64,000 nucleotides of DNA from a virus (IMGVR_UViG_3300023179_004209:103832-167831); one strand, 5' to 3'. Shown: positions 1,102 through 55,741, counted from the stretch's first letter. Program-made: numbers and translations. Notes: generated by a model not told the origin, from the letters alone.

Positions 1102-1124
1102 TCTTTAATAAATATTAACTATTA

Positions 1125-4549: not shown

Positions 4550-4564
4550 AACAGTTCAACTAAA

Positions 4565-17657: not shown

Positions 17658-17668
17658 ATCTTTAATTA

Positions 17669-20600
17669 TTAACCAACCCAGTTAAAATCTAAACTATCAC
17701 TTGCACTATCCCATTCAATTCTCCACTTTGCAGTACCTGTTGTAGCAGCACTGATTTCAAATCCACCAGTTCCACTTGCACCTCTGGTTCTTACTATACC
17801 TTCTACATCCAATTTACGACCTGGATTACTTGTTCCAATACCAACATTTCCGTTATTTAACAACATCATTTTTAAACTATCCGCAGTTTGGAATTGTATA
17901 TCTCCTGTTCCTCTTGCGTTTAGATACAATGATGTATTATTTGTTGTTCTTATTTCATTTGAACCAGGAGTTGTATCATATGATGTTCCTAATAATATAC
18001 CACGAACAGAAACTGATTGAGCGCCGTTAGTTGTAGTTAACAGTGCAAACGATGTATCACTTTTTATTTGACCTAGATTTGTTTGAAGATAACCAGTTGC
18101 AGTAAAATTTACACCAGTATAACTATTGCCAGTGTTTAATGCATTTGCAGTAGTAGCCGTGGTTGCAGTAGCGGCATTACCGTCAATACTAACACCAGTA
18201 AGTGATAAAGCAGATGATGTTCTATTAATAGCAACAGCAGTTGTACCTATATACATTGTTTGATTTGTTGCTGCAGCACCTAATTCGGCTAATGTCCAAC
18301 TTACATCTGCACTTCCATTTACAGATTTTCCTGTTGATCCAATTGTCAATGTTCTTGCAGTAGTCCATATAGCTGCAGAATCAGCATAGCCAGCATAAAC
18401 TTTACCCCAAGATCCCCAAGTATTCGATTCTTTTTGTCTAATCCACAAATAATTATTTCCACCACCAACATTAATTCTTGGAAATGCTATTTGATTTACA
18501 TATGCTGAATAAGCATAATCATTACCAAGACCCATTGATATTACATAATATTGATTAGCTGGTTGACCTGCAGGAGCATCAGCAGCATTTTGACCCTGCA
18601 TGAAATAAAAACCAAAATCAGGTAAAGCACCAAAAGTAGTATATGTGGTATGATTATTACCAGTATTATTAAATAATTGAACTTTTGTTACTCCGCCAAG
18701 TTGTGTTGAATTGGTTGCAGTAGCTGCATTACCACTTGTATTTTGATTTCCAGCCGTATTTACGCCAGGAAGATTTATATCTGCGGAACCGTTAAAACTT
18801 ACACCACCTATGTTTCTTGCTGTTTGTAATGTAGTAGTAGTAGCCGCATTACCACTTATACTTCCGTTAATAGCATTTCTAAATACTGCGGTTCCAGCAT
18901 CCGTGATATAAAATTCAAAATTACTGGTACCATAATTATAAAATCCTATACCAGTTTGAACTGTGCCATTATTATCTCTTCCAAACCACCATTTATTTGT
19001 TCCAGCATCTTGAATTATGATTGCTCTTTCTGTATTAGTTGCACCGTTTAATGTAAAAAATGGTGCACTATCAGCGGTATTTGTATTTGTTGCAATTATT
19101 CCCGATCCTGTGAATGAACCCGTAAATGAAGTGGCAGTTACACTTGCAAATGTTGGAGTTGCTCCTGTGTGAATATTCTGTGGTAAACTTATTGTTATAC
19201 CACCTGTAGACGAATTGACACTTACTTGATTGGTTGTACCTGCTAAACTCGTAACGCCAGTGTTAGTGACTGTTACAGCACCAGTTGCAGATACATTTGC
19301 ACTTAAACCAGTATTGGTTGTTAATGATGTTACACCTGTATTTGTTATTGTTACGGTTGTCGCACCACTTTGATTTGTTGTAAATGTATTGGTTGTACCA
19401 ACACCAACACCTGTTCCAGCTGCAATTGTAATAGTTCCATTTCCTACATTCAATGCAGTTACTGCATTTGCAGCCCAACTACTTGTAATTGCCCAAGTTC
19501 CACTTGCATTTGTTCCATCCGTCCAACAAACATCTTTATAAGTTGAATAAGCACTAGCAGAATTAAATGTTTGTTGCCATATTCTCATTCCAAGAATATC
19601 TTTACGGAACATTACAAGATTATCATTTCCGCCAGTTGCATCTGTATATGAACGCAAATGCAAATAATCTGCCCAAGGTCCAGTGCTATTATTAGTCCAA
19701 CTGGTAAATCCAAATTGAAGATATCCATTTGAAATATTATTTGGAGCAATTGTTCTGATATCTTTCGTCAATAACTGTCCATTTGTACCAGTTACAGTTG
19801 TTGCACTTCCTGCTGTTGTTGATGAAGCAGCACTACCACCAATACTTAATCCAGAAGCAGTTCCTGTTAAACCTGTTCCCGCACCACTAAAACTACTACC
19901 ACTAATTACACCAACTACATGCAATGGCGTTGTAGGAAGTGTTGTTGATATACCCACATTACCATTAGCAATTATGGTAATTCTTTCTAAACCATTTGTA
20001 TACAACCTTGTTATTCCGTGCGTATAGTTAGCATTATTTTTGCTTATTTGTCCTATTTGTAATATACCTCCAGAATTTCCAATAGTGCCTGGCGTATAAG
20101 CTATTCCAATTTGATTATCCCAATCCCAAGTTTTTCCTAAAACCAAAGTGTTTGTAGGATTATTACCAATCATCCATAGATTACCATCGTTATAACCTAA
20201 CAAATCAAATCCATAATATCTAACACGCTCATAACCAGGAGTCAATCTTACACTTACTACATCATTGCCAGCTGCACCTACATCTAATTTATAAGATGGA
20301 CTACTTGTACCTATACCAACCAAACCTGCTTTTGTTATTCTTATATTGTTATCAATCTGTGTACCACCGTTATTAGAACCAAATACCAAATCATCTGTAG
20401 TATCTGTTCCTATATATCCAATATAATGATTACCGTCCGCACTTCCTCTTTCTCTTCTCCAACGCAATCCACCCCAACTTGATGTTGTAGGCATTGAAAA
20501 TGAAAGACCTTCAGCCCAAGCAGATGAAGCAGGTACACATCTTATATTTCCAACTACATCCAATTTTTGAGCAGCAGAGGTTGTTCCTATACCAACATTA

Positions 20601-22249
20601 GTGCCATTATCATAAATTAAGCTATTTCCTAATTTATAACCAGCAGTAGCTTTAGGAATATAATTTGCAGTTAAATTTGTTTGTCCGTCAGGACCAGTAA
20701 TAATTTTACCGTTAACTGCACTTCCTGTCAAGAAAAAATAATCTCCTTCACCATCCCATAAAAATTGACTTAATGTATTACTACCACTATCATACATTTG
20801 AATACCAGCATATCTTTGATATGGACTCAAAGCATTCATTATCAGAATGTTATCAGTAACTGTCAAATTACTTGATGTAATGTAAATATTACTTGCACTA
20901 AATGCAGTTACTGAGCCATTGACCGCAAAATTTCCATTAACAGTTAAATTACCAGAGATAGTATCACCTGCTTGATTTACAGGTGTATATCCTAATCTAG
21001 CCGGTATATTTGTATAATATGATGCAGCTTGTGCATTTAATTGTGTAGCATTTGTTGCGGTGCCAGCAGTTAAATTCGTTGCTGTTCCTGTCAAACCTGT
21101 ACCAGCACCATAAAATATTCCTGCGGTTCTTATATCACTATTATTTCCCCCATTTCCACTTGTAGAAACGCCCCATTCACATATATGATCAAATGTTGTT
21201 GTACTAAATAATGTTCCAGGATTAAAAGTAATTGTTTCGGTGTTAAGTGGAAATATTTCTACTGCCAAATTCGTTGATGTACCACCGTCATGTTTTACTT
21301 GAAGTGTAAATGAAGCATCATTATTAGTAATAATTCTTATAGTTAATTTACTATAAAAACCAGAAATCGCATATACTATAATATCTTGGAAATGATTTAC
21401 TAAAATATCAGCAAGTACATTTACTACAACAGAATTACTTGTTCCATTGAAAGTGGCTCTAATCGCACTTGATAAATTATCTCCAACAACATTACATACT
21501 GTAGTCCATGCAGAACTAGTTACATTATTAATTGTACTTGTATATTTTCTTGATACTGTATCATCTACTGCTATAGTTCTATTTGCACTTAAATCTCCAC
21601 CTCCAGAAATACCAGTGCCTGCTGTAATTGTTCTTGATGTTGGTGTATATGTACTATTATCATAACTTATTGTTGTACCTGATATTTTTACAAAACCAGT
21701 GCCGTTCAATGCAGTTTGATAATATGACGCTGCTTGTCCATTTAATTGTGTAGAATTTATTGCAGTATTAGCATTAACCGCATTGGTAGCCCAACTACCT
21801 GTACCTGTTAAATTGCCTGTAAATGTACCAGTAATTGTTTTATTTGTAAGTGTCTGTGTACCAGTTAAAGTAACATAACTTGCAGCAGCTACACCACCTA
21901 AATTTGTAGAATCTGATGCTAATGTAGTTGTAGCAGCATTTCCAGATATATCAATTGTTGCTAAATTTGTAAATGGATTATATGTACCACCAGCACCATC
22001 CATCATCAATGTCTTTGTACCTGTTTCCGCAGAACCAGATGCTAAAACAAACGGATAATTTACATTACTATTATTAACAGTAACATTTATAACATTTAAC
22101 GGCGCAGAAATAGCAGCAGCAGAAAGTGGTGCGTCAAAGTTTACACCATTGTTTGCATCCAATGTAAATGAATGTCGTCTTGTTACTTGTGCAGAATTGT
22201 CAACGAATTCTAGTTTACCTGAACTTGGTGTTATAATAATGTCTGGCAT
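17669..22249 (-). CDS. Long mosaic tail fibre (1526 aa)
   Basis: VGIGT repeats, 'TQTLTNKT', GNAATAT, 'ARNIGGVSFNGSADI', NTGVTS repeats, knob-like domains. Confidence 0.85.
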   Translation of the reverse strand: MPDIIITPSSGKLEFVDNSAQVTRRHSFTLDANNGVNFDAPLSAAAISAPLNVINVTVNNSNVNYPFVLASGSAETGTKTLMMDGAGGTYNPFTNLATIDISGNAATTTLASDSTNLGGVAAASYVTLTGTQTLTNKTITGTFTGNLTGTGSWATNAVNANTAINSTQLNGQAASYYQTALNGTGFVKISGTTISYDNSTYTPTSRTITAGTGISGGGDLSANRTIAVDDTVSRKYTSTINNVTSSAWTTVCNVVGDNLSSAIRATFNGTSNSVVVNVLADILVNHFQDIIVYAISGFYSKLTIRIITNNDASFTLQVKHDGGTSTNLAVEIFPLNTETITFNPGTLFSTTTFDHICEWGVSTSGNGGNNSDIRTAGIFYGAGTGLTGTATNLTAGTATNATQLNAQAASYYTNIPARLGYTPVNQAGDTISGNLTVNGNFAVNGSVTAFSASNIYITSSNLTVTDNILIMNALSPYQRYAGIQMYDSGSNTLSQFLWDGEGDYFFLTGSAVNGKIITGPDGQTNLTANYIPKATAGYKLGNSLIYDNGTNVGIGTTSAAQKLDVVGNIRCVPASSAWAEGLSFSMPTTSSWGGLRWRRERGSADGNHYIGYIGTDTTDDLVFGSNNGGTQIDNNIRITKAGLVGIGTSSPSYKLDVGAAGNDVVSVRLTPGYERVRYYGFDLLGYNDGNLWMIGNNPTNTLVLGKTWDWDNQIGIAYTPGTIGNSGGILQIGQISKNNANYTHGITRLYTNGLERITIIANGNVGISTTLPTTPLHVVGVISGSSFSGAGTGLTGTASGLSIGGSAASSTTAGSATTVTGTNGQLLTKDIRTIAPNNISNGYLQFGFTSWTNNSTGPWADYLHLRSYTDATGGNDNLVMFRKDILGMRIWQQTFNSASAYSTYKDVCWTDGTNASGTWAITSSWAANAVTALNVGNGTITIAAGTGVGVGTTNTFTTNQSGATTVTITNTGVTSLTTNTGLSANVSATGAVTVTNTGVTSLAGTTNQVSVNSSTGGITISLPQNIHTGATPTFASVTATSFTGSFTGSGIIATNTNTADSAPFFTLNGATNTERAIIIQDAGTNKWWFGRDNNGTVQTGIGFYNYGTSNFEFYITDAGTAVFRNAINGSISGNAATTTTLQTARNIGGVSFNGSADINLPGVNTAGNQNTSGNAATATNSTQLGGVTKVQLFNNTGNNHTTYTTFGALPDFGFYFMQGQNAADAPAGQPANQYYVISMGLGNDYAYSAYVNQIAFPRINVGGGNNYLWIRQKESNTWGSWGKVYAGYADSAAIWTTARTLTIGSTGKSVNGSADVSWTLAELGAAATNQTMYIGTTAVAINRTSSALSLTGVSIDGNAATATTATTANALNTGNSYTGVNFTATGYLQTNLGQIKSDTSFALLTTTNGAQSVSVRGILLGTSYDTTPGSNEIRTTNNTSLYLNARGTGDIQFQTADSLKMMLLNNGNVGIGTSNPGRKLDVEGIVRTRGASGTGGFEISAATTGTAKWRIEWDSASDSLDFNWVG

Positions 22250-22255
22250 ATTTTA

Positions 22256-22263
22256 TATAAATA
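22256..22263 (-). promoter_or_regulatory. TATTTATA late-gene motif
   Basis: Exact match 6 nt before the ATG at 22249. Confidence 0.7.
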
Positions 22264-25200
22264 TTAAAGTTCTGTGTTTAATTCAGGTACATCTGCTCTT
22301 ATTGCTGTAAAATCCCAGAAAAAGTCATAATCTTTATATGATTCAAACAATGCTTTATCATATGCAATTGTAAAATAATTTTCTGGTATATTGATATCAT
22401 CAACATATAGTGTTTTATTACACTTTATTCCCGTCAATTGTATATTTACACTGTCATGTAATATCAATTTATAAATGTATTCTGGTAATTCTACTTTACA
22501 TTTACCATCTTTTAATGTATCTCTTCCAGTCAATCTGATACCATGATATGGACTTTCTAATGAACCATATATAAGTTTCTTTCCTTTCTTTGTAGGATGA
22601 TCAATAATGAAACTCTTGGTTGTTGCACCAAAACTACCACTTACATACAATCTATATGTTCCAACATTACTATCACCAATACCTACTGCACCACTTCCAC
22701 TTACATACAATATCGCACCGCTAATAGGACTCTTTATATTCAATAAAGCACTATTACTTGATCCGGTAATTTCTAACTTAGCAGCAGGAGCCGCAGTACC
22801 AATACCAACTCTACCGTCATAATCAAATGTTGTATGTTTTAACCAAGCATTTGCTGAATTATATGACCATAAATCTAATCCAGTACCACCCGAATTTAAT
22901 TGTAAATTAAATGCTCTTGTATTACCTCCATTTGCCAAATAAACTTGTGTTTGTATTGTATCCGCACCATTTTTATATGATGCTAATGCACCGTAAACAG
23001 TAAGTTTATCGGTTGCATTTGTAGTACCAATACCAACATTTCCAGATTGAACTAGAAAATTGCCTGTTTCAATTGAAGATGTTGCAGGAGCAGAAACATT
23101 GCTTATTTTAAATACCAATGTACCGTCAGCAGATAACCCAAGTGTTTTTGTTGATGGACGATAAATACCTGTTGTAGGTATTGTACCAGCACCTGTTACA
23201 TCAACATATGCAGATGTCAACCCTGCAACTGTATATGTATTACTTACATTTAATGCATTTGCAGTACCAACAGTTAAACTAGCTGCAGTTCCTGTTAAAC
23301 CTGTACCTGCACCAACAAATGTTGATGCGCTAACAGGAAAAACAAAATAAGCAGATCCGTTTCCATCGCCAGATTCAAAAAGCAATCTTCCACCGGTTGG
23401 TGTAATACTCCAAGAACGAACGCCAAGTTCGTTAGTTCCAATTTTACCTGCTGTACCACTTCCAGCAATATTAACTCCGATAGAATTAACTTGATAATTA
23501 TTTGATGTATTTAACGCATTTGCAGTTTGTGCAGTTGTTGCATAACTTGCACTAACAACATTGCTAGCCCAACTACTTGTTCCTAAGAAACCAACCGCAT
23601 TACTTATGCTTGAAGTAAAACTGCTGCCACTGATGTTGCCATTAACTTGTAATGTTGCAACAGGAGATGTTGTACCTACACCAACATTTCCTCCGTTTGG
23701 ATTTAATACTAAACTATAATAAGTAGCAGCAGATGATTTTCTTGGTTGTATCCAAGCATAAGCAGTTGAAGTTGCATCAACGCCAAATGTATTTACAACA
23801 TCAGTCGTTGTATTTCCTAATATGAAAATACCGTTTGCATTTGTTGAACTTGTGGCAGGTCCATAATATGGAGCTGCTGTAGAATTAACTTGTAATTTTC
23901 CTATTACAGTAGAAGTACCTACACCAAGATTTCCAGATCCATCAATTCTAACTCTTTCAATTGGAAGAAGCGCAGAGTCATTTGCACTACCACTACCAAC
24001 ATTAAATGCTAGAAATTCTGTTCCCCATGTACCATATGTACCGTCCGCAAATCCTGTAATAATAGTTGATGTTCTTCTAGCACCTACATCTGATGGATAA
24101 TTATAAAATGTAGTATAAAAATCAATATAAGCTTTACGACTTGTACCACCATCATTAGCTCTTAATGTTAAAGTTGGATTTGTATCGTTTATTTGTAATT
24201 TTGATCCAGGACTACTTGTTCCAATACCAACACTTGAACTTGGAAATGTAACACTGTCATCAGCAGCACTGATTTGCATTCTTAATTGATTCAAATCATT
24301 TGTTATTTGAAAATGACCAGTAGTTCCACTATTTAATACATTTTTACCGATCTTCCAATCTCTGCCAGGATTAGAACCAATATAAATATAACTTGTATAA
24401 CCACTGCCTGTTGTATTAACAAATGTAGCAATCTTACCATCTGTACTGCTTTGTTTTTCAAACGAAGCAGCAACTTGTCCCGCAACTTCTGTTGGACCAC
24501 CATTAACTTGTAATTTATAAGTCGGAGCACTTGAACCTATACCAACATATCCAGTAGAATTAATTGTAACTTTTTCACTTCCGCCTGTAACTAATCCGAT
24601 TGTATCTGCACCAGAAGAATATATTCCTGTATTTGTATCACCAACAAATGCGATACCTGGAATTGATGTAGTACCTGTTGTAGCAAGAATCTGATAACCA
24701 GATCCCATTGATAAAGTTCCATTATTAGTTAATCCAGAAACTGTATAACTATTAGCTGTATTTAACGCATTTGCAGTTTGTGCGGTTGTTGCATAGCTTG
24801 CACTAACTACATTGTTAGCCCAACTACTTGTTCCAAATAAACTACTTGTAATAGCATTAACTGTAAAATTACCTGAAGAATCTAAAGATGCCACGGAATT
24901 TAAAGCAACAGGACTATTTGCTACTACAGTAGAAGATCCAGTAGAAGAATACCAGTAATGAACATTTCCTCTAATTGTATAAGCTCCTCTAGATACATTT
25001 ATACCCGTTGAACTTACAAATGTTCCTGCTGATGCTGATGGCCAAACTGCATATCCCAAAACAGGTCCACCATTGCTATATTCACCTCCTAATGTAACCA
25101 ATGCACCGTCGTTATAATATCCCGCAAGGATTTTTGATGCTTGAACAGAAACTTTATCTCCTGATGTAATATACCCACTTCTTACATCAAGCAACGATGC

Positions 25201-26829
25201 AGGAGATGTTGTACCTATACCAACACTTCCACTTAGAAAATAAAAACTTCCATTATTATTATTATCAAAATAAAATCTTATATTTGAAGATGCATCCACC
25301 AATCTCGCTGGATAATTGTTAAAAGTAAATTGCGTATTATCCCAATACCAACCCAATGTAGAATTATTTGGAGCATATGCTCTAACTTGACCAGATGAAC
25401 CACCAAATCCACCAGCTCCATTGAAATATAAATCTGGGGTTGTGGCATTACCATCACCAACAACATTGGCCGATCCACTAACATCCAATTTATAAGCAGG
25501 ACTTGTTGTACCTATACCAACATTGCCATTTATATCAATTCTTAATTGTTCTGAATATGAAGTACTTCCAGAAACTTTTCCTATTGCAAAATATTGATTG
25601 GAAGATACACCGTGTCCCCATATTAAATTTGATTCACTAAACCCATTACTATAATTTGTTCCAATTGATACACCAGTGGTAAATCCCGTTGGTAAATTAG
25701 CCCCAACATTACCATTAAACCATGACCAATTATTTCCATTTGCCGCTTTAAAAACTTGAAATAATGTACCAGGAACTGTTGTACCAATACCAACATTACC
25801 ATCATCTTTTACTATTAATTTTGTAGAATAAGCACTAGTTGGAGTTTGTATTAAAAAGTCACCATCATCATTTCCTAAGAAAACATTGTCACCAGATGAA
25901 TCTATTAATGATATAAAACAACTACTAGCTGAACTCTTGAATGTACCAATTGTAGAAGTTGACCCACTAATTCTTAAATCACCATAAACATCTAATTTAT
26001 ATCCAGGACTTGTTGTTCCAATACCAACATTACCGCCGGCATCAATTCGCATCCATTCGGCCATTGTTCCGGCTGTATTTGTAGTAGCAAATTGTAAATA
26101 CCCCGCATTACTACTAGATAATGCGTTTGTTTTTCTACCTGCTATTTGACCGAATGATTGATAACTACTTGTATTATAAGTTCCACCTAAACCTATTGCA
26201 CCACCAACATCAGCAGCAAATGAAGCACTAGTCCATACTCTTAATACATTATTTCCTGCTCCGTTATCAGTTGCAGGATTTGTAGGAAATTGTACTTCTA
26301 ATCTACTGCCAGGATTTGTTGTACCTATACCAACATTATTAGTTGCTCTATTTATTGTAATAGCATCTGCTGATAATGCCGAATTGTATATTCGGAACAT
26401 GTCATTATTAGCTCCGTTAACATATTGATTTTCCAATGACCAAGTAGTATATGTGCCTACTAAATCTACTTTTGCAGAAGCTACAGAATTTCCTTGTACT
26501 CTTATAGTGGGTGTAGCACCATATACGTGTAACAAAGCACCAGGAGCAGTTGTACCAATGCCAACTATACCAAAACTGCTTGTACCACTTGCACTAATAT
26601 TGCTTGCGGTAAGATTAGTAATTATGGAAGTGCTACCACTAACATAACTTGCAGTACCTACGGTGATACTATTTAGTGATGCGCTATTAATACGAGCGGT
26701 ACTATCAAAATAAATGAGAGAACTGGTTGCTGCAGCTATTTTAGTTTCTAAAAATGCTGTACCTGAACTACTTACTTGACTTAAGATTAAATCGCCGGTA
26801 TTATAAACTATTCCAGATCCTATTGGCAT
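22264..26829 (-). CDS. Long fibre with ~13 (G)NVGIGTT repeats (1521 aa)
   Basis: Repeated GNVGIGTTxP..L.V units; C-terminal 'KSFIIDHP...LESP' domain typical of fibre ends. Confidence 0.85.
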   Translation of the reverse strand: MPIGSGIVYNTGDLILSQVSSSGTAFLETKIAAATSSLIYFDSTARINSASLNSITVGTASYVSGSTSIITNLTASNISASGTSSFGIVGIGTTAPGALLHVYGATPTIRVQGNSVASAKVDLVGTYTTWSLENQYVNGANNDMFRIYNSALSADAITINRATNNVGIGTTNPGSRLEVQFPTNPATDNGAGNNVLRVWTSASFAADVGGAIGLGGTYNTSSYQSFGQIAGRKTNALSSSNAGYLQFATTNTAGTMAEWMRIDAGGNVGIGTTSPGYKLDVYGDLRISGSTSTIGTFKSSASSCFISLIDSSGDNVFLGNDDGDFLIQTPTSAYSTKLIVKDDGNVGIGTTVPGTLFQVFKAANGNNWSWFNGNVGANLPTGFTTGVSIGTNYSNGFSESNLIWGHGVSSNQYFAIGKVSGSTSYSEQLRIDINGNVGIGTTSPAYKLDVSGSANVVGDGNATTPDLYFNGAGGFGGSSGQVRAYAPNNSTLGWYWDNTQFTFNNYPARLVDASSNIRFYFDNNNNGSFYFLSGSVGIGTTSPASLLDVRSGYITSGDKVSVQASKILAGYYNDGALVTLGGEYSNGGPVLGYAVWPSASAGTFVSSTGINVSRGAYTIRGNVHYWYSSTGSSTVVANSPVALNSVASLDSSGNFTVNAITSSLFGTSSWANNVVSASYATTAQTANALNTANSYTVSGLTNNGTLSMGSGYQILATTGTTSIPGIAFVGDTNTGIYSSGADTIGLVTGGSEKVTINSTGYVGIGSSAPTYKLQVNGGPTEVAGQVAASFEKQSSTDGKIATFVNTTGSGYTSYIYIGSNPGRDWKIGKNVLNSGTTGHFQITNDLNQLRMQISAADDSVTFPSSSVGIGTSSPGSKLQINDTNPTLTLRANDGGTSRKAYIDFYTTFYNYPSDVGARRTSTIITGFADGTYGTWGTEFLAFNVGSGSANDSALLPIERVRIDGSGNLGVGTSTVIGKLQVNSTAAPYYGPATSSTNANGIFILGNTTTDVVNTFGVDATSTAYAWIQPRKSSAATYYSLVLNPNGGNVGVGTTSPVATLQVNGNISGSSFTSSISNAVGFLGTSSWASNVVSASYATTAQTANALNTSNNYQVNSIGVNIAGSGTAGKIGTNELGVRSWSITPTGGRLLFESGDGNGSAYFVFPVSASTFVGAGTGLTGTAASLTVGTANALNVSNTYTVAGLTSAYVDVTGAGTIPTTGIYRPSTKTLGLSADGTLVFKISNVSAPATSSIETGNFLVQSGNVGIGTTNATDKLTVYGALASYKNGADTIQTQVYLANGGNTRAFNLQLNSGGTGLDLWSYNSANAWLKHTTFDYDGRVGIGTAAPAAKLEITGSSNSALLNIKSPISGAILYVSGSGAVGIGDSNVGTYRLYVSGSFGATTKSFIIDHPTKKGKKLIYGSLESPYHGIRLTGRDTLKDGKCKVELPEYIYKLILHDSVNIQLTGIKCNKTLYVDDINIPENYFTIAYDKALFESYKDYDFFWDFTAIRADVPELNTEL

Positions 26830-26833
26830 ATTG

Positions 26834-26867
26834 TATAAATATTACTTTATTTATGTTTATATAAATA
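26834..26867 (-). promoter_or_regulatory. Two TATTTATA motifs (26834-26841, 26860-26867)
   Basis: Exact matches between the terminator and the ATG at 26829. Confidence 0.7.
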
Positions 26868-26869
26868 TA

Positions 26870-26899
26870 ATAACCCAAGAGGTTTATTTCTTGGGTTAT
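26870..26899 (-). terminator. Probable intrinsic terminator
   Basis: Stem ATAACCCAAGA / TCTTGGGTTAT downstream of 26933..29158; weak U-tail. Confidence 0.6.
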
Positions 26900-26932
26900 C
26901 ACTTTATTTACACTTTTATTGGTTATTTTATA

Positions 26933-29158
26933 TTAGAGTGACCAGTTTGAAATCGGTACTCTCTTCCAAATATTATTGGTATATACATATATAAAATTAT
27001 TATCAACGTTAATTTGACCAGGCATACCACTCGCAGTAGGATGTGATGGGACAATCCCTCCACCTAAAGGTGCGCTTCCTGTAGAAATAGTTAATGTTGT
27101 AAATGAACCAGTAACATAAGTTACTAAAGCACCAGTAATATATGTTATACTTCCAGTAGTAGCCGTAATTTTGCTTGAACTAATAGTTGTTCCTGTATAA
27201 GCTAATGTTGTTCCATCATCACTTATTAATGAATTAATAATTCCATTAACATCATATGCTTTTGGTATTCTATTAACAGTTAAAGATGGAATAGCACTAC
27301 CAAACGACGCAGTTGGACCAATAATAATATTGCTTGCAGTACTATTTTGATCAATTGTTATCCAATTATCTTGATCACCGTCCCATAATAATGATGCGCT
27401 TCTTTGATTGCTGCCACTATCATATACTTCAAAACCAGCATATCGTTCATATGGAAAATATGCATTTAATTGAATGATGTTATCATTAATAATGACCGTA
27501 CTGGAACTGATATAAACTACACTTGAACTACCAAATACAGTAAAATCCCCAGCAACATTTAATGAACCTGAAATCCATGTATCCTTGCTAATTCTAGCAC
27601 CACCATCAACTCTCAATGCGGCAACTGAATCAGTATAACTCGTAGCATTTGTTGCATTAGTAATTGCTGTAGTTAATTCTGTATAGACACCAGTATTAAC
27701 GCCTTGTCCAGTAAGCACTCTAAAACCATTACTATTTTTACCAACATATAATGATGCGGTATCATTACTAGATGGTTGTCCAATTTGAACAGTAGCTCCG
27801 CCGTTATCATTTGCATTATATAGTGCAATTGAATTTGGATTTGTACCATTATCATTGCTAATATACAATGAACCAGTTGTATTGCCTACAATAACTCTAT
27901 TTAATAATGGATTATAAGATAAAACATCCGCATCAGCTTTTAACGAATTGCTGCCAGTATTATTGACAAAAGTTACATAATATGTACTATTATCATTTAT
28001 AGCACCAATACTTGAACTTATTGCAATGTTTGTCCAACTTGATGTTCCTAATAAACTTCCTGTAAATCTTGAAGCAATTATTTGTCCACTTGCACTAATA
28101 TTGCTTGCGGTAATATTTGAACCAACTATATTTGAACTAGAACTAATGTTTGGTGCGATTAATTGATTTTGTATTAGTGTATATCCACTTCCACTGCCTA
28201 TTACTATTGCAGTACCATCAAGAGCAAAATTTAATGTTTGAACTCCTGTTTTAAGTAAATCAAACGCAGCATCCGCAGAACCAATTATTCCAATACTAGG
28301 ATGCATGATGTAAAGTCCAGATGAAGTAATTACTCCACTTGCACTAATATTGCTTGCGGTAATATTTGTAGCAATATAATTTGTACCAGCAATTATACCA
28401 TTACTTGCACTGATTGCATATGATGCTTGAGACCCAACCGCATTAATTGATAACGCAACTGAACTACCAGTTGATACGGTTGAATTAATACTGAACATTA
28501 CATCTGACCCAGTTGTAGCAGTACTTGTAAAATTAATATCTGGCGAAGTCAATGAGCCCGTTGCCATGGTTTCAGTATAAGTCATACTGTTGTTAAACCA
28601 GACATTGCTTGCACTTAATGTATTGCTTGCACTAACATTACTTGCAGTTAAATTTGTTGAAAATACATTTGATAATGTACTATTACCTATTACTGCAAGT
28701 GTACCCGTAATATATTCATTACTTGATGTAATATTTGCACTTGCACTTACTAACCCACTAAATGTAGCTGTAGTACCTGTTAATCCTGCCAATGTTGTCG
28801 ATCCAACAACAGTAAGAGTACCAGCATCTTGTATTGCGCTTGCAGTCAATCCCGCACTTGCACTTACTAAACCACTCAATGTTGATGCGCCAAGGACTAT
28901 AAGAGAACCGACATCAGTAATATTAGTTTTTACCCATACATTGCTTGCACTAATATAACCGCTAGCACTAATATTGCTAGCGGTAATATTATTTATATTT
29001 ATATCAGACGAACCGATTAATGTTCCCGTAGTATCTGTTTGTAAAATAAGTCGTGAACCGCTAATAATAGTTTCAACAAATGGTGCTTGTCCACCCTGTA
29101 AAGACGCAGACGTTTGAGGGATTACTATGTTAAGAATGTTAGAATTGGGGTATGGCAT
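26933..29158 (-). CDS. Fibre-like structural protein (741 aa), possibly collar/whisker
   Basis: NITASNISASG repeats; segment paralogous to the 1526-aa fibre; adjacent to the neck genes. Confidence 0.7.
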   Translation of the reverse strand: MPYPNSNILNIVIPQTSASLQGGQAPFVETIISGSRLILQTDTTGTLIGSSDININNITASNISASGYISASNVWVKTNITDVGSLIVLGASTLSGLVSASAGLTASAIQDAGTLTVVGSTTLAGLTGTTATFSGLVSASANITSSNEYITGTLAVIGNSTLSNVFSTNLTASNVSASNTLSASNVWFNNSMTYTETMATGSLTSPDINFTSTATTGSDVMFSINSTVSTGSSVALSINAVGSQASYAISASNGIIAGTNYIATNITASNISASGVITSSGLYIMHPSIGIIGSADAAFDLLKTGVQTLNFALDGTAIVIGSGSGYTLIQNQLIAPNISSSSNIVGSNITASNISASGQIIASRFTGSLLGTSSWTNIAISSSIGAINDNSTYYVTFVNNTGSNSLKADADVLSYNPLLNRVIVGNTTGSLYISNDNGTNPNSIALYNANDNGGATVQIGQPSSNDTASLYVGKNSNGFRVLTGQGVNTGVYTELTTAITNATNATSYTDSVAALRVDGGARISKDTWISGSLNVAGDFTVFGSSSVVYISSSTVIINDNIIQLNAYFPYERYAGFEVYDSGSNQRSASLLWDGDQDNWITIDQNSTASNIIIGPTASFGSAIPSLTVNRIPKAYDVNGIINSLISDDGTTLAYTGTTISSSKITATTGSITYITGALVTYVTGSFTTLTISTGSAPLGGGIVPSHPTASGMPGQINVDNNFIYVYTNNIWKRVPISNWSL

Positions 29159-30877: not shown

Positions 30878-32083
30878 TTATCCTATATAAATTAATAATG
30901 GAACAGTTTTCATAATAGAAGTCATTTTTTCAGTTTCATCTGCCTTAGCTTCTATTTGAGCTTTACGACTGGTTGCTTCAAGATTTTCTCTTAATTGCGT
31001 AATTAATATTTCTTTTTCAGCTGATGCTTCACTTCTTAATTCAGAACCATCCAATGTTACTTCACCGCCAGGAATTGGAATCGTACTATATTTTTGTCTT
31101 ATTAAACCAAGATTTTCTTTACACAATGCCAAGAAATATTTCTTAACCCATTGTTTTCCAACTGCATTTAATTTATAATAAACTACATTTTGATAAGGAA
31201 CATTACTATAATCACTCACTACATCATAATTACTTCCACTACTAAATGTATTTGCACCACTCAATTTGTCTTTTTCAACTACATATTCAACATAAATTGT
31301 ATGGTCATGAGTAGGAATAGGAAATATCTTTAATTTATTATTGACAATTTCAAAACTATATGCACTCTTACGAACCATATCATTGAATTCAATTGCTTGA
31401 CCTCTCAATAAATCTTCAAATATTGGTGTCATTAAGAATTGTGTAGCAGGACTATAACCAGCAAATCCCATTTCATTCAATACGTTGCTATAACTCATAC
31501 CAGTCATACTAAATGGATCATATATACGAGCAAATGCTGGAGGAGGACCATGAAATACTCTTCTAATTTCAACTCTACTGCCTGTTTCAAGATTTGTACC
31601 AATTAAATCTTGTAAATCATATGTTTGTACACTGGATGTTAATTGAACTGGTGCTTTTTTGATATCAACATAACCACCTACACCAACTTCACTTCCGTAT
31701 CCTTTAGCTAATTGAATTATATATGGTAATCCTGTTCCAGTAACATTTTTACCAGTAATATTAGGATTATCTGCAGTGCTTAATCCTTGTAAATTCAATA
31801 AATTATTTCTGATATTAAATTGATTTACTTGAGCACCATATTCATTGACGGCTTCTTCAAAAGCAGCATAAAAATTAACATCAATCAATTCAATATCAAT
31901 GATCGGATATCCCATTCTTTTCGCAGCCCATTCTGCACTCTTTTCACAATCATATTCAAAATAACCAACACTGCCGCTCAAATATGATTCGTTTAAGTAA
32001 AATCCAAACGGTATGCTTCCAGTAGTTACCGCACTACCGCTGCCTGGCCATCTTACTCTATCTTGATCTAAATTAGCACTCAT
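30878..32083 (-). CDS. gp13: Neck / head-tail adaptor (T4 gp13-like)
   Basis: 'RMGYPIIDIEL', 'WVKKYFLALCKENLGLIRQKY..IPGGEVTLDGSELRSEA..E'. Confidence 0.85.
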   Translation of the reverse strand: MSANLDQDRVRWPGSGSAVTTGSIPFGFYLNESYLSGSVGYFEYDCEKSAEWAAKRMGYPIIDIELIDVNFYAAFEEAVNEYGAQVNQFNIRNNLLNLQGLSTADNPNITGKNVTGTGLPYIIQLAKGYGSEVGVGGYVDIKKAPVQLTSSVQTYDLQDLIGTNLETGSRVEIRRVFHGPPPAFARIYDPFSMTGMSYSNVLNEMGFAGYSPATQFLMTPIFEDLLRGQAIEFNDMVRKSAYSFEIVNNKLKIFPIPTHDHTIYVEYVVEKDKLSGANTFSSGSNYDVVSDYSNVPYQNVVYYKLNAVGKQWVKKYFLALCKENLGLIRQKYSTIPIPGGEVTLDGSELRSEASAEKEILITQLRENLEATSRKAQIEAKADETEKMTSIMKTVPLLIYIG

Positions 32084-33051: not shown

Positions 33052-34734
33052 TTAGATTTGATCTAGGTCAGATACGTAGATCTTACCATAGAATTCAGGA
33101 CGTACTACCTTCTTAGCATAACGAGTCAATACACCTCTACGTGGAGTGAAGTTAATTGGATCGTATACCAATGGAGTTTGTACTAGTGGGATGTATGGGG
33201 AATATACAGCACCGGTTTCTAGGAAGTTATTTCCACGGAAGCCCATCAAGATGGTGTTTTCTTGCATATATGGGTTCTTGTAGACTTGGAAGCGACTTGC
33301 GAAGCTACCAACACGACTTACGCCCATTGCGAACTTAGCAGAATCACCATCAGTATTTACAACGTATCCTGGGATTGATTCCAAGATGGTTGCTACGTCT
33401 GGACCTACTACTAGGAAGTTTGCACCACCACGAAGAGTCAATTGATGAATCTTGTTGCTTACCTTTTGGATCTTGTTGCCAAGAGTTTGGTACCAAGTGC
33501 TCTTTACGTAAGCAGTACGATTTGTTGAATCGTTGTTTACGGTGAAAGTTGGGAGACCATTAGAGTCATTTGCACCCTTGATGATGTCCTTACCGATTAC
33601 TGCAGACCATCCTTCAGTTGTCAATGCTGGAGCAGCATTGATCAACATGTCCATGATTTCAAGATCAATTTCCATTGATACATATTCACTCAAGAGAGCA
33701 GTCAATTCTGCTTCTGCATCAATGCTGTGGTAAGCATTCAAGTCTTGAGCCAATTCTGGGGTCCAGACTGCCTTTAACTTACGGGTCTTAGCAACGATTG
33801 GTTCGCTCTTAAGTTCCAAGTTAACTTCTGGAATGTTGATATCGGTACCTTGGTTAATACCGCCACTTGAACCAGCTGTTCCTTTGAATGGATTGGTATC
33901 TTCAAAGTCACCACGGGTACTGTCAGTAGGTTGTACAGTGTAAGTTAATACAGCATTTCCTGGGAAAACTGGTGATTGTGAACCAGTTACGATGAATTGA
34001 ATTCTGTAATATGGAGAAGCCAAAGAACCTGTATTGTATACCTTGGTCAATTCATTGATTTGTAGTGTTGGATCGATTCCTGAACCGCTCAAAGCAAAAC
34101 TTCTTACTGCGTTCAAGTCAATTCTTGCACTGCTATTGTCGCCAACGTTTACGGTAATCTTTTTCCAAGATCCTGTAGCAACATAGGTTGAATCCAAATC
34201 AACATCACTGAAACTTACAGAACCAGTTGCATATGAAAATGATGCTGATTGATAGTTTTCAGTATAAGCATAACGACCTACACCATATAGACCGTTTACA
34301 GCTGCATCGGTAGAACCAAGTTTGGTGCTGTTACCACCGAATAGTGATTGACCGTTATAACCGTTTTGACCTGGCAAATTACCACGGGTAGTACCATACT
34401 TGAAGTCAAGATAGAAGATTAGACCGGATGGTAGGTTCATTGGTTGTACTGAAACGAATTCCTTAGCGGAAATTTCAGCGAACACACGGCGAACCAATGG
34501 AAGAGCTACGCCTGCCCATTGTTCACTGTTTGCAGAAGTACCAGTAGCGGTAGCTTCGTTCAACAATTGTTGTGCTTGATTTTCAAGCAAAATGGACATG
34601 TGTGCCTTATCGACACCTTCTAGTCCTTCAAGAAGACCAGTCTTGTCCCATTTGCTTTGCAATCCACGGGTTTCAGTCATCAACTTAGCCTGTGGATTCA
34701 TATTATTTGTCAATAATGATTTAATATCACTCAT
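33052..34734 (-). CDS. gp23: Major capsid protein (T4 gp23 family)
   Basis: 'LPLVRRVF', 'VQPMNLPSGLIF', 'AKTRKLKAVWTPELAQDLNAYHSIDAEAEL', 'YSPYIPL', 'FTPRRGVLTRYA'. Confidence 0.97.
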   Translation of the reverse strand: MSDIKSLLTNNMNPQAKLMTETRGLQSKWDKTGLLEGLEGVDKAHMSILLENQAQQLLNEATATGTSANSEQWAGVALPLVRRVFAEISAKEFVSVQPMNLPSGLIFYLDFKYGTTRGNLPGQNGYNGQSLFGGNSTKLGSTDAAVNGLYGVGRYAYTENYQSASFSYATGSVSFSDVDLDSTYVATGSWKKITVNVGDNSSARIDLNAVRSFALSGSGIDPTLQINELTKVYNTGSLASPYYRIQFIVTGSQSPVFPGNAVLTYTVQPTDSTRGDFEDTNPFKGTAGSSGGINQGTDINIPEVNLELKSEPIVAKTRKLKAVWTPELAQDLNAYHSIDAEAELTALLSEYVSMEIDLEIMDMLINAAPALTTEGWSAVIGKDIIKGANDSNGLPTFTVNNDSTNRTAYVKSTWYQTLGNKIQKVSNKIHQLTLRGGANFLVVGPDVATILESIPGYVVNTDGDSAKFAMGVSRVGSFASRFQVYKNPYMQENTILMGFRGNNFLETGAVYSPYIPLVQTPLVYDPINFTPRRGVLTRYAKKVVRPEFYGKIYVSDLDQI

Positions 34735-37405: not shown

Positions 37406-39088
37406 TTATCTTAATTTGAAAATGTTCTTGTTTTTACTACTAATAGATTCAAATAGTTTATTTTCTGGTATAATCTTATCTTTTATAAATTTTATTTGGT
37501 TTTTATTTATACCAACAAAGATTACATTGTTAATTTTATTATTGACTTGTATTATATTTTTAAGTGTTAAAAATATGCTCTTGATCATTTTACCAATAGC
37601 ATCATCAATTTTTTGAGATAAATAATTTGAAATTAATTGATTTAATTCGGTTACATTTTTACCGCCGGATAATGTAGAATTTTTAGAAAACTCTATTGCT
37701 AAAGTATTGATTAGTTTACGTTTAAATAACATTCCCAATTTATTTACTTCCACTAATTTAATTTCAGTAAACAATTTAGGTTCTTCTGATTTTAATGCAT
37801 TGGAATTTAAAGAAAATTCAAATCTAATTCTATTTTTCATATTACATTTTATTTTATATGATGTAATATTATCATTATCAATTTTAAATGCCATTAATGT
37901 TTTTGACTCATTTGGTAATCTAGTATTAGAATTATCATTTAACTTTGAATTTAATATTTTTTCCGGATAAATTATAGTTAATCCGCTTAAAAATTCGTCT
38001 GTAATATATTCATCCAATTTGGCTTTTAATTCGTTTGTTAAACCATCTGCAGCGGAACCAGATACAGGTTCTGTTGTTGGAGTAGATGTACCTACAACTT
38101 TTTGATCTATATAATCAACAATATATTTAAATCTTTCTCCTTGTCTTTTCATCCAGTTAAGAACATTTTCTGGATTATAATTTGACATGTCTGGATTTGG
38201 TTGTATCTTAAAATACCAACTCAAATCTTTGAGAAAATCCAAGTATAATTCGGATTGTTCAGAATTTAATGCTTCCTTAATTATTCTTTCAGGAATTACA
38301 GATCTTCTTGCAGGATTAATTATTAAAGTTGCACTATAAGAAGTTCCCGCATCTTTATTTGCTACAGTAGAAATTGAATCAGAATATAATGTTTTATAAC
38401 TTACTGAATTATTTATTGATGCGGATATAGTTGAATAAGCATTCAAAAATTCAGGTTTAATCCAATATTCTAAAAATTGACCTCTTGATTCGGTTCCAAT
38501 ATATTTTTTATCTATTACGTTATTATTTACTAAACCTGAAACATCAAGATTACCTTTAAAAGTAGAACTAGTAACAAATAAAATAGGAGATATTTTATAT
38601 GCAGCTGTATATCCACTATTAATTGTTATATTATCAGCTCTTGGTTGTTGAAAAATTTTGATTAAATCGGTATTTAAATTTTTAGGAGTAGTAATATATT
38701 CTCTAGACTCTGTAGATGTAGATCCAGTAACAGAACCTGTTGTAGCAGTTGTAGGTGTCGTAGATCCAGTAACTGAGCCTGTAACAGCAACTGAACCAGT
38801 AGGTGATGCAGTTGGAGTTACTGATGATGTCGATGCAGTAGAACTCGTCGTAGTTGTAGAACCGGATGGTGTAGTTAATATTGGTGATGTAGCTACTGAT
38901 GGCGTAATTTTTTCAAACTTTTCTTTAAATCTTAAAAATAAAGTTTCTACTCCTTTATCTTTACTATCAGTCGTTACATCTCCAGCGCCTAATACATTTT
39001 TAATTCCTTGACCAAATCTTGATAGATTTGCTCTAAACATATCTGATGCTGCTTCATTAACTTTACGATTCATATCATTTAATTTCAC
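37406..39088 (-). CDS. Hypothetical protein with a Thr/Ser-rich linker (560 aa)
   Basis: Overlaps the protease stop; TGSV repeats; several xxE sites. Confidence 0.7.
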   Translation of the reverse strand: MKLNDMNRKVNEAASDMFRANLSRFGQGIKNVLGAGDVTTDSKDKGVETLFLRFKEKFEKITPSVATSPILTTPSGSTTTTSSTASTSSVTPTASPTGSVAVTGSVTGSTTPTTATTGSVTGSTSTESREYITTPKNLNTDLIKIFQQPRADNITINSGYTAAYKISPILFVTSSTFKGNLDVSGLVNNNVIDKKYIGTESRGQFLEYWIKPEFLNAYSTISASINNSVSYKTLYSDSISTVANKDAGTSYSATLIINPARRSVIPERIIKEALNSEQSELYLDFLKDLSWYFKIQPNPDMSNYNPENVLNWMKRQGERFKYIVDYIDQKVVGTSTPTTEPVSGSAADGLTNELKAKLDEYITDEFLSGLTIIYPEKILNSKLNDNSNTRLPNESKTLMAFKIDNDNITSYKIKCNMKNRIRFEFSLNSNALKSEEPKLFTEIKLVEVNKLGMLFKRKLINTLAIEFSKNSTLSGGKNVTELNQLISNYLSQKIDDAIGKMIKSIFLTLKNIIQVNNKINNVIFVGINKNQIKFIKDKIIPENKLFESISSKNKNIFKLR

Positions 39089-55700: not shown

Positions 55701-55741
55701 CTTGATAAACCTAAAATTTGACCTGTCTTTATGCTGGGCAT
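52703..55741 (-). CDS. Large virion structural protein (1012 aa) with a fibre-like C-terminal part
   Basis: Beta-rich; GFPFTGSAEITGSL and TASYA repeats shared with the ORF at 1-1101. Confidence 0.65.
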   Translation of the reverse strand: MPSIKTGQILGLSSQTVNIEDKTYLSEYFNLTEFSPEFSVGKNALVINGSDKLKIGAEILTEAFDSNGVPLFIEKAVSVDQLTNKRIIVLSIYVYEQNSIGSGKIILVSTTVDNKTVRWSANININVNKVTDSKIRFYNQPLIEVEPILSYAVSSSVENNPKTITGSFLSTAVQPKADFDIQKFGYRKNLVDYRIIDGTANFSSSLKNFQIQLYVNKIRDYASLNEISINTTSSFLIKDVLNTTTLILDTPFTYNNKVATITSGNYKIVYNDITYNSNLFLSSSYLQESLGLSGAKQYKKFSYAKIIYKNINTFTGKPAKHKVYRKSLRTLGDFESVIDETFGDTEILRDPVTPNKAFERLGVFFSQFHINNFWFTSSNDLSLKYDNQTFVDGLKISGSNLNGTYAIVKANTSFTNRNVSYLPYNANQQAAQSGSNYDSNFLSFYKDTDYVFSFRTSVVEKDSSATAKLKFYITSSLPSVNKNIGYDPNRGVLIAEFAYSGSTTGKYFDQKQNFEFKFPEDLYGTLVVYPENIKQIIVSDLSIKVSELYGYTGNAYYVKVPFPINVANEVFEIKSELYDVNSNLSYTNLRTVQVFDPSGSSSPPDIGSSTTISTNNLIVTSSITWISPDCISNSPVPFKYFLTWDDSSGKICVMTSSAVASGSIISGSGGGNITSIIGGPGVTIISGSGPIVTISASAGGTGSGFPFTGSAEITGSLTVTGSIYSYNITSSLYGTASWAISASRAITASYTVSSSYSNTSSYSFSSSFATTASYANNGIPTGGATSYILAKSSSNDYDTYWIPSPTGPAGQGEFSFTSSYFSGSTSSITCSTDYSFWHLHTLNNLNVYISSSTESGSFSIRLVSSGSTNNTINFYPYQQIEWSGVAGFDGPGSGSIEESGSITLAPAQEMVLSFIYYNNTSSLYPEKKYSAFVSDLKTPGLENKTIIPNLYLIGEGDYSIGGGGLTDPNAYIFTINGGGTNQDLSGIGSKTFWGWAPVYVEGSGRRFFPLYQ

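What the first reader, a model, noticed from the sequence alone, without database searches (positions are those of the whole stretch)
33979..34248. [S/T]-[G/A/S]-S tripeptide concentrated in variable insertions of structural proteins: candidate virion glycosylation sequon
Seen: the capsid protein has six copies (SAS, TGS, TGS, SGS, TGS, TGS) in this ~90-aa stretch and I found none in the rest of the protein. The sheath has many in its central insertion (RSGS, NSGS, ISGS, VTSS, FSAS, VSGS, FSGS, YSGS, LSGS) but almost none in its conserved C-terminal domain. The motif recurs in the gp13-like protein, the gp15 extension, the 71, 647, 741, 771 and 1012-aa proteins and both edge ORFs, yet is rare in terminase, primase, protease and Mre11-Rad50. 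Established: the equivalent region of T4 gp23 is the outward-facing insertion domain, and some phages glycosylate virion proteins on Ser using their own glycosyltransferases. Inference: unrelated folds converged on one short motif because it is a modification site, perhaps for the GT2/GT4 pair at 7207-8874, giving a glycan-coated particle.
Basis: partly seen in the sequence, partly recalled or inferred. Interest (0 to 1): 0.8.

Follow-up and report, generated by a model that had tools for sequence, protein, structure and literature searches.

The report
Serine tag on phage surface proteins
The outward-facing head, tail and fibre proteins of this 296-kb aquatic T4-like phage carry the ordered tripeptide Ser/Thr-small-Ser about twice as often as chance allows. 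Related phages show the excess only when they also encode one conserved pair of sugar-transferring enzymes, so it is probably, but not provably here, where the phage attaches a sugar coat.

Summary
Observation confirmed and sharpened. The capsid protein has six [ST][GAS]S copies at residues 163-252 and none elsewhere. In the phage's structural gene block the motif occurs 625 times against 278-351 expected under three local shuffles. The other 263 ORFs show 84 against 83-92.

The motif is ordered (TGS, not SGT) and sharply defined: position 1 is S or T, position 2 is G, A or S, position 3 is S only. It acts at protein level and favours beta-strand exits. Its sites are better conserved than their variable surroundings. 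T4 lacks the excess.

Interpretation partly supported. There is no chemistry, but capsid, sheath and neck orthologues gain or lose the motif together across genomes. Of 300 ORFs, only two fit that pattern. They are adjacent genes outside the window (genome 21.1-23.1 kb): a phage-type GT-B and a small GT2. The GT2's nearest solved relative is GmaR, the Listeria flagellin O-GlcNAc transferase.

The main rival is an unmodified structural strand-exit motif. The covariation may rest on only one or two evolutionary events. Earlier notes of this scan report the same or similar motifs in other aquatic T4-like and unrelated phages.

The parts
33979..34248 (-). Capsid insertion-domain stretch (aa 163-252) with six [ST][GAS]S copies. 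Their codons lie at 34240-34248, 34219-34227, 34168-34176, 34081-34089, 34024-34032 and 33979-33987.
   Evidence: Five of the six sites keep a motif within 3 columns in 18-29 of 29 relatives. Four of the six sit at beta-strand C-terminal ends in the AF2 model (pLDDT 86).
33052..34734 (-). Major capsid protein, T4 gp23 family, 560 aa.
   Evidence: Pfam Gp23 7e-71. The model matches T4 gp23 at Z 20-22.
50398..52251 (-). Sheath N-terminal and insertion part (aa 118-735) carrying 15 motif copies. The conserved C-terminal domain has one.
   Evidence: Sites 208, 263, 286, 682, 724 and 733 are kept in 30-42 of 43 non-redundant homologues, although their flanks are only 23-71% conserved.
30878..32083 (-). 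gp13-like neck/adaptor protein, 6 copies against about 1 expected.
   Evidence: phrog_211.
1..6508 (-). Fibre-like proteins: edge ORF 1-1101, then 1070 aa, 71 aa and 647 aa. All are motif-rich.
15385..29158 (-). Large virion proteins of 424, 1526, 1521 and 741 aa, motif-rich. The 741-aa protein has 42 copies in N-I-[ST]-A-S type repeats. The 333-aa ORF at 16656-17657 in this span is not enriched (2 against 1.3).
52703..55741 (-). 1012-aa fibre-like protein, 40 copies against about 13.
61449..63764 (-). 771-aa FG-GAP repeat protein, 18 copies against about 4.
7207..8874 (.). They are a lineage-specific accessory pair, not the conserved correlate of the motif.
9168..14126 (-). 1652-aa S/T/G/A-rich fibre-like protein that is depleted in the motif (6 against 14). 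It serves as an internal negative control.
37406..39088 (-). 560-aa head-module protein with a Ser/Thr/Pro-rich linker (aa about 70-127) holding 10 motif copies.

Best explanation
[ST]-[GAS]-S is a selectively maintained acceptor tag for cytoplasmic O-glycosylation of virion proteins. It usually sits where a beta strand leaves the fold on outward-facing parts of the particle: the capsid insertion domain, the sheath outer domains, the neck and the fibres.

Soluble phage glycosyltransferases would modify the Ser, most likely the invariant third residue, before or during assembly. This resembles the way flagellins are glycosylated on their exposed central domains.

The best candidate initiating enzymes are not the pair in the window. 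They are a conserved adjacent pair at genome 21,153-23,133: a phage-specific GT-B of 436 aa and a GmaR-like GT2 of 222 aa. The rest of the phage's sugar-nucleotide and GT island, and perhaps the window pair, would elaborate the glycan.

Shown: the motif, its specificity, its distribution, its conservation, and its covariation with the GT pair. Inferred: that any sugar is attached.
For: 1. Sharp residue rules. At position 3 only S is enriched (625 against 293); T, N and D are not. At position 1 only S and T are enriched. At position 2 only G, A and S are enriched. The motif is directional. Codon use at the motif matches background, so it is not a DNA signal.

2. Confined to the structural block. 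The ratio there is 1.8-2.25 under three nulls, against 0.9-1.0 for the other 263 ORFs. Terminase, protease and the other head-module ORFs carry none, and portal has 3 against 1.4.

3. Not a general feature of T4-like virions. T4 has 52 against 59, and P-SSM2 has 43 against 33, not significant.

4. Purifying selection. Motif tripeptides are more conserved than other S/T/G/A tripeptides in the same regions (sheath p=0.004, capsid p=0.03). Sheath S209 and S210 are invariant in 44 sequences.

5. Concerted presence or absence across three unrelated orthologues, given as capsid/sheath/neck counts:
- Pair-bearing genomes: window 6/16/6, G003 4/8/5, G004 5/6/4, Mel-JY01 5/11/5, immuto 3/-/2.
- Pair-less genomes: LR756508 1/1/1, G005 0/4/-, RM378 1/2/3, T4 0.
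- In LR756508 and G005 several of the sites are replaced by acidic residues.

6. Phyletic profiling. Of 300 ORFs, only the adjacent GT-B and GT2 hit all four motif-bearing genomes and none of the four others. The GT-B is also found in two further motif-rich partial contigs.

7. The GT2 aligns along its length with the GmaR flagellin O-GlcNAc transferase domain (E 4e-6, DxD region aligned; GmaR function from PMC9638930).

8. DNA is an unlikely target. The genome has no ThyA-fold hydroxymethylase. In immuto, which has the pair, nucleoside analysis found canonical dA, dC and dT plus fdPreQ1, and no sugar-bearing nucleoside is reported (PMC10516641).

9. Known bacterial O-glycosylation sites look similar: SASSAS in Lactobacillaceae S-layers (PMC10221546) and G-[ST]-X in Kuenenia (PMC5088730).
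Against: - There is no chemical evidence of any glycan.
- The motif has a consistent structural context. Nine of 16 sites are at strand C-terminal ends, with a hydrophobic residue before and after. A purely structural role could explain both conservation and enrichment.
- Some sites are conserved across capsid proteins at 30-64% identity, as structural positions would be.
- The covariation with the GT pair may rest on one or two events. LR756508, G005 and L087 group together in the capsid tree (86/83), and the tree is otherwise star-like.
- Mel-JY01 has the pair but only weak overall enrichment (1.3). RM378 lacks it yet shows 1.7 on small numbers.
- One exposed-looking fibre protein is depleted, and a probable head-internal protein carries the motif in a linker.
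- The GmaR match is modest, and GT2 enzymes have many kinds of acceptor.
Confidence: 0.5

Rival explanations
1. An unmodified structural motif. Ser/Thr-small-Ser is a lineage-specific way of ending beta strands or forming tight exits in the beta-rich outer domains and fibres. The association with glycosyltransferases is shared ancestry, and the enzymes act on something else, such as the host envelope or small molecules.
For: The motif prefers strand exits, 9 of 16 sites, P about 0.001, and never strand entries in the capsid. Flanks are hydrophobic and charges are depleted. Sites are conserved at fixed columns over deep divergence. The pair-less genomes cluster in the capsid tree, so there are few independent events.
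Against: The same folds exist without the motif. Homologous capsid insertion domains in LR756508 and G005, and in P0003-type capsid proteins, replace all the sites together, often with acidic residues. T4 virion proteins show no excess. Glycine-dependent turn geometry does not explain why A and S are accepted at position 2. It also does not explain why T, N and D are rejected at position 3. It is unexplained why unrelated folds in one genome would adopt the motif and drop it together.
Confidence: 0.32
2. One reading: the GT-A/GT4 pair at window 7207-8874 writes the modification.
For: The GT4 lies in the fibre cluster on the late-gene strand, directly downstream of the 1652-aa fibre gene. The 219-aa protein groups with viral GT-like clusters.
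Against: The GT4 has no homologue in the complete motif-bearing genomes G003 and G004. The pair was not recovered by phyletic profiling and is unrelated to the conserved pair. At most it extends or varies the glycan in this lineage.
Confidence: 0.08
3. A different modification of the Ser, such as phosphorylation or acylation, or a recognition site for an assembly factor.
For: Strict Ser at position 3 fits any Ser-directed chemistry.
Against: There is no Pkinase-family gene in the genome. The only genes tracking the motif are glycosyltransferases.
Confidence: 0.07
4. An artefact of Ser/Thr/Gly-rich composition, low complexity or paralogous repeats.
For: The fibre proteins contain repeats, and motif-rich proteins are S/T-rich.
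Against: The excess survives three local nulls, including permuting only S/T/G/A among their own positions (z 18.5), and it survives paralogue masking. The reversed tripeptides are not enriched. An S/T/G/A-rich fibre protein is depleted.
Confidence: 0.02

Closest known systems
Virion glycosylation of mycobacteriophages by phage-encoded glycosyltransferases (Freeman et al. 2023, as summarised in PMC12619734)
   Same: A phage encodes its own soluble glycosyltransferases, and the proposed targets are capsid and tail proteins modified inside the cell.
   Different: There the glycans sit on the C-termini of the capsid and tail-tube subunits. Here a short internal tripeptide is spread over many proteins (capsid insertion domain, sheath, neck, fibres) in a T4-like myovirus, with unrelated enzymes and no chemical proof.
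Flagellin O-glycosylation by GmaR in Listeria monocytogenes (PMC9638930)
   Same: A small GT-A domain glycosylates a self-assembling surface protein in the cytoplasm. The conserved 222-aa GT2 aligns with the GmaR GT domain (E 4e-6).
   Different: The phage protein lacks GmaR's TPR and anti-repressor domains. The acceptors would be many unrelated virion proteins, and the sugar is unknown.
Ser-small-Ser O-glycosylation sites of bacterial S-layers (SASSAS in Lactobacillaceae, PMC10221546; G-[ST]-X in Kuenenia, PMC5088730)
   Same: The modified Ser is preceded by a small residue, on an exposed lattice-forming protein.
   Different: Those proteins carry one or a few sites and are handled by cellular systems. 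Here there are hundreds of sites across a virion proteome.
Type II' beta-hairpin turns (Gly followed by Ser, Thr or Asn); this rests on general structural knowledge, not on a paper read here
   Same: A small residue followed by Ser at a strand exit.
   Different: Ala and Ser substitute for Gly, and Thr and Asn do not substitute for the final Ser. That does not fit a rule based on backbone geometry.

Membership tests
T4 gp23-type major capsid protein | Sequence match to the Gp23 family and an HK97-like fold with an insertion domain | tested here: met
   Pfam Gp23 7e-71. The AF2 model matches T4 gp23 chains at Z 20-22.
Mycobacteriophage-type virion glycosylation | Phage-encoded glycosyltransferases present | tested here: met
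   One Glycos_transf_2 match and five Glycos_transf_1 matches in the genome, four of them over the curated cut-off.
Mycobacteriophage-type virion glycosylation | Acceptor sites at the C-termini of the capsid and tail-tube subunits | tested here: not met
   The capsid sites are internal (aa 163-252 of 560) and the C-terminus has none.
Mycobacteriophage-type virion glycosylation | Glycans demonstrated on virion proteins | not testable with these tools
   Needs glycoprotein staining or mass spectrometry of virions.
GmaR-like protein O-GlcNAc transferase | GT-A domain homologous to the GmaR N-terminal domain, with a DxD motif | tested here: met
   L261:7465-8133 against 22ao_A: E 4e-6, residues 3-127 and 157-209 aligned. 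The IDDDE segment aligns to IDADE.
GmaR-like protein O-GlcNAc transferase | TPR and anti-repressor domains after the GT domain | tested here: not met
   The protein is 222 aa and consists of the GT domain only.
GmaR-like protein O-GlcNAc transferase | Transfers GlcNAc to Ser/Thr of a protein acceptor | not testable with these tools
   Needs an enzyme assay.
Serine-rich-repeat protein glycosylation (GtfA/GtfB type) | GT4 enzyme related to GtfA | tested here: inconclusive
   Neither GT-B protein gave a GtfA match by sequence in the PDB. Folds were not compared.
Glycine-dependent beta-turn motif | Gly is required at the turn position, and Ser, Thr and Asn are interchangeable after it | tested here: not met
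   Position 2 accepts A (139 against 65) and S (228 against 151). Position 3 rejects T (207 against 218) and N (166 against 160).

The most novel reading that the evidence does not exclude
A whole clade of aquatic T4-like phages coats the outside of its particles (capsid insertion domain, sheath, neck, fibres) with sugars. The sugars are attached in the cytoplasm at a genome-wide sequon, [ST]-[GAS]-S at beta-strand exits. The writers are a conserved phage GT-B plus a GmaR-like GT2. This would be a phage counterpart of flagellin glycosylation, and a far broader system than the C-terminal glycosylation known from mycobacteriophages.
Probability: 0.45. Interest if true: 0.85.

Novelty: new variant of a known kind. 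Interest (0 to 1): 0.7.

Why it matters
If the tag is a glycosylation site, particle-wide sugar coating would be a common and unrecognised property of abundant freshwater and marine myoviruses. That would bear on adsorption, stability, grazing and aggregation, antibody or lectin recognition, and the purpose of the many glycosyltransferase and sugar-nucleotide genes in large phages. It would also give a simple sequence rule for predicting exposed, modified surfaces. The idea can be tested directly, because two cultured phages (Flavobacterium phage immuto and Microcystis phage Mel-JY01) carry both the motif and the candidate enzyme pair.

Tried and rejected
- **DNA-level signal:** rejected. Codons at the motif mirror background usage and no nine-base word dominates.
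- **Composition or low complexity:** rejected by whole-protein shuffles, 15-30-residue block shuffles, shuffles with hydrophobic positions fixed, and shuffles of S/T/G/A only.
- **Paralogous repeats:** the excess persists after masking.
- **General property of T4-like structural proteins:** rejected by T4. P-SSM2 is not significant.
- **Window GT pair as the conserved writer:** rejected.
- **DNA glycosylation as the target of the enzymes:** made unlikely. There is no ThyA-fold enzyme, and published immuto nucleoside data show no sugar-bearing base.
- **Phosphorylation:** no Pkinase-family gene.

Things that led nowhere or could not be done:
- Scans with P0023 and P0025 gave only 1-2 loci.
- The sheath AF2 model is poor outside residues 100-400 (pLDDT 55 overall), so sites 450-735 have no structural context.
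- Solvent accessibility could not be computed because model coordinates are not exposed to the script machine.
- PDB sequence search found nothing for the 436-aa GT-B.
- The capsid tree did not resolve how many independent gains or losses occurred.

Full report
**What the window is.** It is bases 103,832-167,831 of a 295,831-bp phage record with 31.7% G+C. It holds the late module of a T4-like myovirus:
- a gp23-family capsid protein (33052-34734, Pfam Gp23 7e-71), a T4-type portal, large terminase, prohead protease, a 1083-aa sheath whose last 330 residues match sheath families, and a gp13-like adaptor;
- many large fibre-like proteins without family matches.

The nearest isolates by capsid protein are Flavobacterium phage immuto (53%), Microcystis phage Mel-JY01 (50%) and Rhodothermus phage RM378 (38%). 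IMG/VR holds many uncultured relatives at 70-98% identity.

- The capsid protein has SAS163, TGS170, TGS187, SGS216, TGS235 and TGS250 and no other copy. This is exactly the reported interval.
- The sheath has 15 copies before residue 747 and one in the conserved C-terminal domain.
- Across the 44 window ORFs there are 282 copies against about 123 expected from shuffles within 15-30-residue blocks.
- Over the whole genome, the structural block (85-190 kb, 77 ORFs) has 625 against 293, while the other 263 ORFs have 84 against 87.
- Two stricter nulls give 278 (hydrophobic positions held fixed) and 351 (only S/T/G/A permuted among S/T/G/A positions, z 18.5). The non-structural ORFs stay at 0.9-1.0.
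- Aggressive masking of paralogous segments still leaves 109 against 54.

**The motif is a sharply defined, ordered, protein-level signal.**
- An unbiased count of all tripeptides puts SGS, TGS, TSS and SAS among the most enriched. The reversed SGT, SST and SAT are at expectation.
- In the structural block T[GSA]S outnumbers S[GSA]T by 304 to 118. Elsewhere the ratio is 31 to 46.
- Position by position: only S and T are enriched at position 1, only G, A and S at position 2, and only S at position 3. T, N, D, A and G are all at or below expectation at position 3.
- Codons at the motif follow background usage, so the signal is not in the DNA.
- The residue before the motif is typically I, V or F. 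The one after is W, Y, L or F. K, E, D and Q are depleted nearby.

**Structural context.**
- An AF2 model of the capsid protein (98-sequence alignment, pLDDT 86, matches T4 gp23 at Z 20-22) places four of the six sites at the C-terminal end of a beta strand or its first loop residues. One is inside a strand and one is in a loop.
- The sheath model is poor overall (pLDDT 55) but has pLDDT of about 65-86 over most of residues 100-400. There, five of ten sites are at strand C-terminal ends.
- Combined, 9 of 16 sites are at strand exits against 19% expected (P about 0.001). There is no preference for strand entries.
- Exposure itself could not be computed.

**Conservation.**
- In 29 non-redundant capsid relatives (72-97% identity), five of the six sites keep a motif within three columns in 18-29 sequences. 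Register shifts and in-class substitutions (TGS, SGS, TAS, TSS) occur. The insertion domain as a whole is only 59% conserved.
- In 91 diverse capsid proteins (28-64% identity), the insertion domain often carries 5-10 copies against 1-3 expected, and the rest of the protein almost none. Recurrent columns lie near residues 163, 172, 182, 217 and 250.
- In 43 non-redundant sheaths (61-95% identity), the N-terminal part always shows about twofold excess. Sites 208, 263, 286, 682, 724 and 733 are islands of conservation, for example 0.84 identity against 0.23 for the flanks at site 208. S209 and S210 are invariant.
- Motif tripeptides are more conserved relative to their flanks than other S/T/G/A-only tripeptides (sheath p=0.004, capsid p=0.03).

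**It is lineage-specific and behaves as a genome-wide trait.**
- T4's structural regions, including gp34, gp37, gp12, gp18, gp23, Hoc and Wac, show 52 against 59. P-SSM2 shows 43 against 33, not significant.
- Among 160 IMG/VR loci around related capsid genes, neighbours that include Ser-rich proteins are typically enriched about twofold. The two loci whose capsid protein has no motif (L087, L088) show 0.6-0.8.
- Whole-genome ratios for Ser-rich proteins: this phage 2.20, G004 2.46, immuto 2.04, G003 1.80, RM378 1.74 (small numbers), Mel-JY01 1.31, LR756508 1.20, G005 1.18, T4 1.14.
- Three unrelated orthologues change together. Capsid/sheath/neck counts are 6/16/6 here, 4/8/5 (G003), 5/6/4 (G004), 5/11/5 (Mel-JY01) and 3/-/2 (immuto). 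They are 1/1/1 (LR756508), 0/4/- (G005), 1/2/3 (RM378) and 0 (T4).
- In LR756508 and G005 several of the homologous positions are occupied by acidic residues. The folds therefore do not require the motif.

**Which enzymes track it.**
- Pfam GT2 and GT1-family genes are present in all the strongly motif-bearing genomes. They are absent from G005 and T4. LR756508 has no GT2, and RM378 has only a sub-threshold GT2 hit.
- A blastp phyletic profile was run for all 300 ORFs of this genome against eight others. Exactly two proteins hit all four motif-bearing genomes and none of the four others: adjacent genes at genome 21,153-22,463 (436 aa) and 22,465-23,133 (222 aa).
- Six-frame searches of the full records confirmed their absence from LR756508, G005, RM378 and T4.
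- Homologues of both genes lie adjacent or within about 2 kb of each other in immuto, G003, G004 and Mel-JY01.
- The GT-B also occurs in two partial contigs that are motif-rich (G016 and G024). Among 50,697 phage records, only immuto and Mel-JY01 have it.
- The 436-aa protein is a phage-specific GT-B (weak Glycos_transf_1 match, virus-only Atlas clusters).
- The 222-aa protein is a GT2. [quoted passage not shown]
- GmaR transfers GlcNAc to Listeria flagellin (PMC9638930).
- The next gene encodes a DegT-type sugar aminotransferase.
- The two window genes are unrelated to this pair beyond generic GT-B features.

**Other possible targets for the enzymes.**
- This genome has no ThyA-fold hydroxymethylase.
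- For immuto, published nucleoside analysis found canonical dA, dC and dT, with G fully replaced by a formylated deazaguanine. No sugar-bearing nucleoside is reported (PMC10516641). DNA glycosylation therefore does not explain the conserved pair there.
- No protein kinase family gene is present.
- Modification of the host envelope remains possible and was not tested.

**Weighing the readings.**

For a sequon:
- strict Ser at position 3;
- a size rule rather than a glycine rule at position 2;
- restriction to virion proteins that are or are likely outward-facing;
- selection on the sites;
- concerted gain or loss across unrelated proteins;
- the only two genes with the matching phyletic pattern are an adjacent glycosyltransferase pair, one of them GmaR-like;
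- similarity to known bacterial sites (SASSAS, PMC10221546; G-[ST]-X, PMC5088730).

Against a sequon:
- no chemistry;
- a clear strand-exit context with hydrophobic flanks, which a purely structural role would also produce;
- deep conservation of some sites;
- imperfect correlation in Mel-JY01 and RM378;
- a motif-poor fibre protein and a motif-rich linker in a probable head-internal protein;
- a capsid tree in which the pair-less genomes LR756508, G005 and L087 group together (86/83) inside a star-like radiation, so the association may reflect one or two events only.

**Relation to earlier notes of this scan (unchecked leads, not evidence).**
- The same genome was noted to carry a large soluble glycan-gene island without export genes (e1-5683259). 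My Pfam hits at 4.7-23 kb agree with that.
- The same or similar Ser tags were reported in other aquatic T4-like phages (e1-5729095, e1-5835772) and in unrelated phages (e1-5906113, e1-5769461).
- My finding that the excess runs through a wide capsid clade is consistent with those notes.

Noticed in passing
window 4342, 14132, 22256, 26834, 32088, 32979, 37398, 43281, 49285, 55748, 61438 and others: The octamer TATAAATA on the plus strand, which reads TATTTATA on the coding strand of the minus-strand genes, occurs 34 times against 18 expected. In more than a dozen cases it lies about 5-50 nt upstream of a late-gene start codon. It may be a promoter or an initiation-region element of this lineage.
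   Followed up: partly
window 9168-14126: This 1652-aa fibre-like protein has long internal duplications (for example the stretch beginning YNSYSPTLTGTGASGTWGIS occurs twice, and the one beginning TAGNLSGTIPSGVLGNST occurs twice). It is rich in S/T/G/A but depleted in the motif (6 against 14). It may be a separately acquired or deliberately untagged fibre.
   Followed up: partly
window 37406-39088 (aa about 70-127): A head-module protein with a leader like the head-targeting tags noted earlier has a mucin-like Ser/Thr/Pro linker carrying ten motif copies. This is the one clear case of the motif in a protein that is probably inside the head.
   Followed up: no
G000 genome 21153-24490 (L261:6153-9490), outside the window: A conserved gene trio: GT-B (436 aa), GmaR-like GT2 (222 aa) and a DegT-family sugar aminotransferase (435 aa). 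The first two are the only ORFs whose distribution matches the motif across nine genomes.
   Followed up: yes
window 7849-7866: The plus-strand 219-aa GT-A-like gene and the minus-strand GT4 gene overlap by 18 nt at their 3' ends. The GT4's second-best PDB sequence hit is a chlorovirus glycosyltransferase (B736L, E 5e-4).
   Followed up: partly
Related genomes LR756508 and G005 (L084, L171-L184): In relatives that lack the motif, the homologous surface positions of the capsid protein (and of the neck protein in LR756508) are acidic rather than Ser-rich. Sheath insertion sites align only in G005. This suggests two alternative surface chemistries within one capsid clade.
   Followed up: partly
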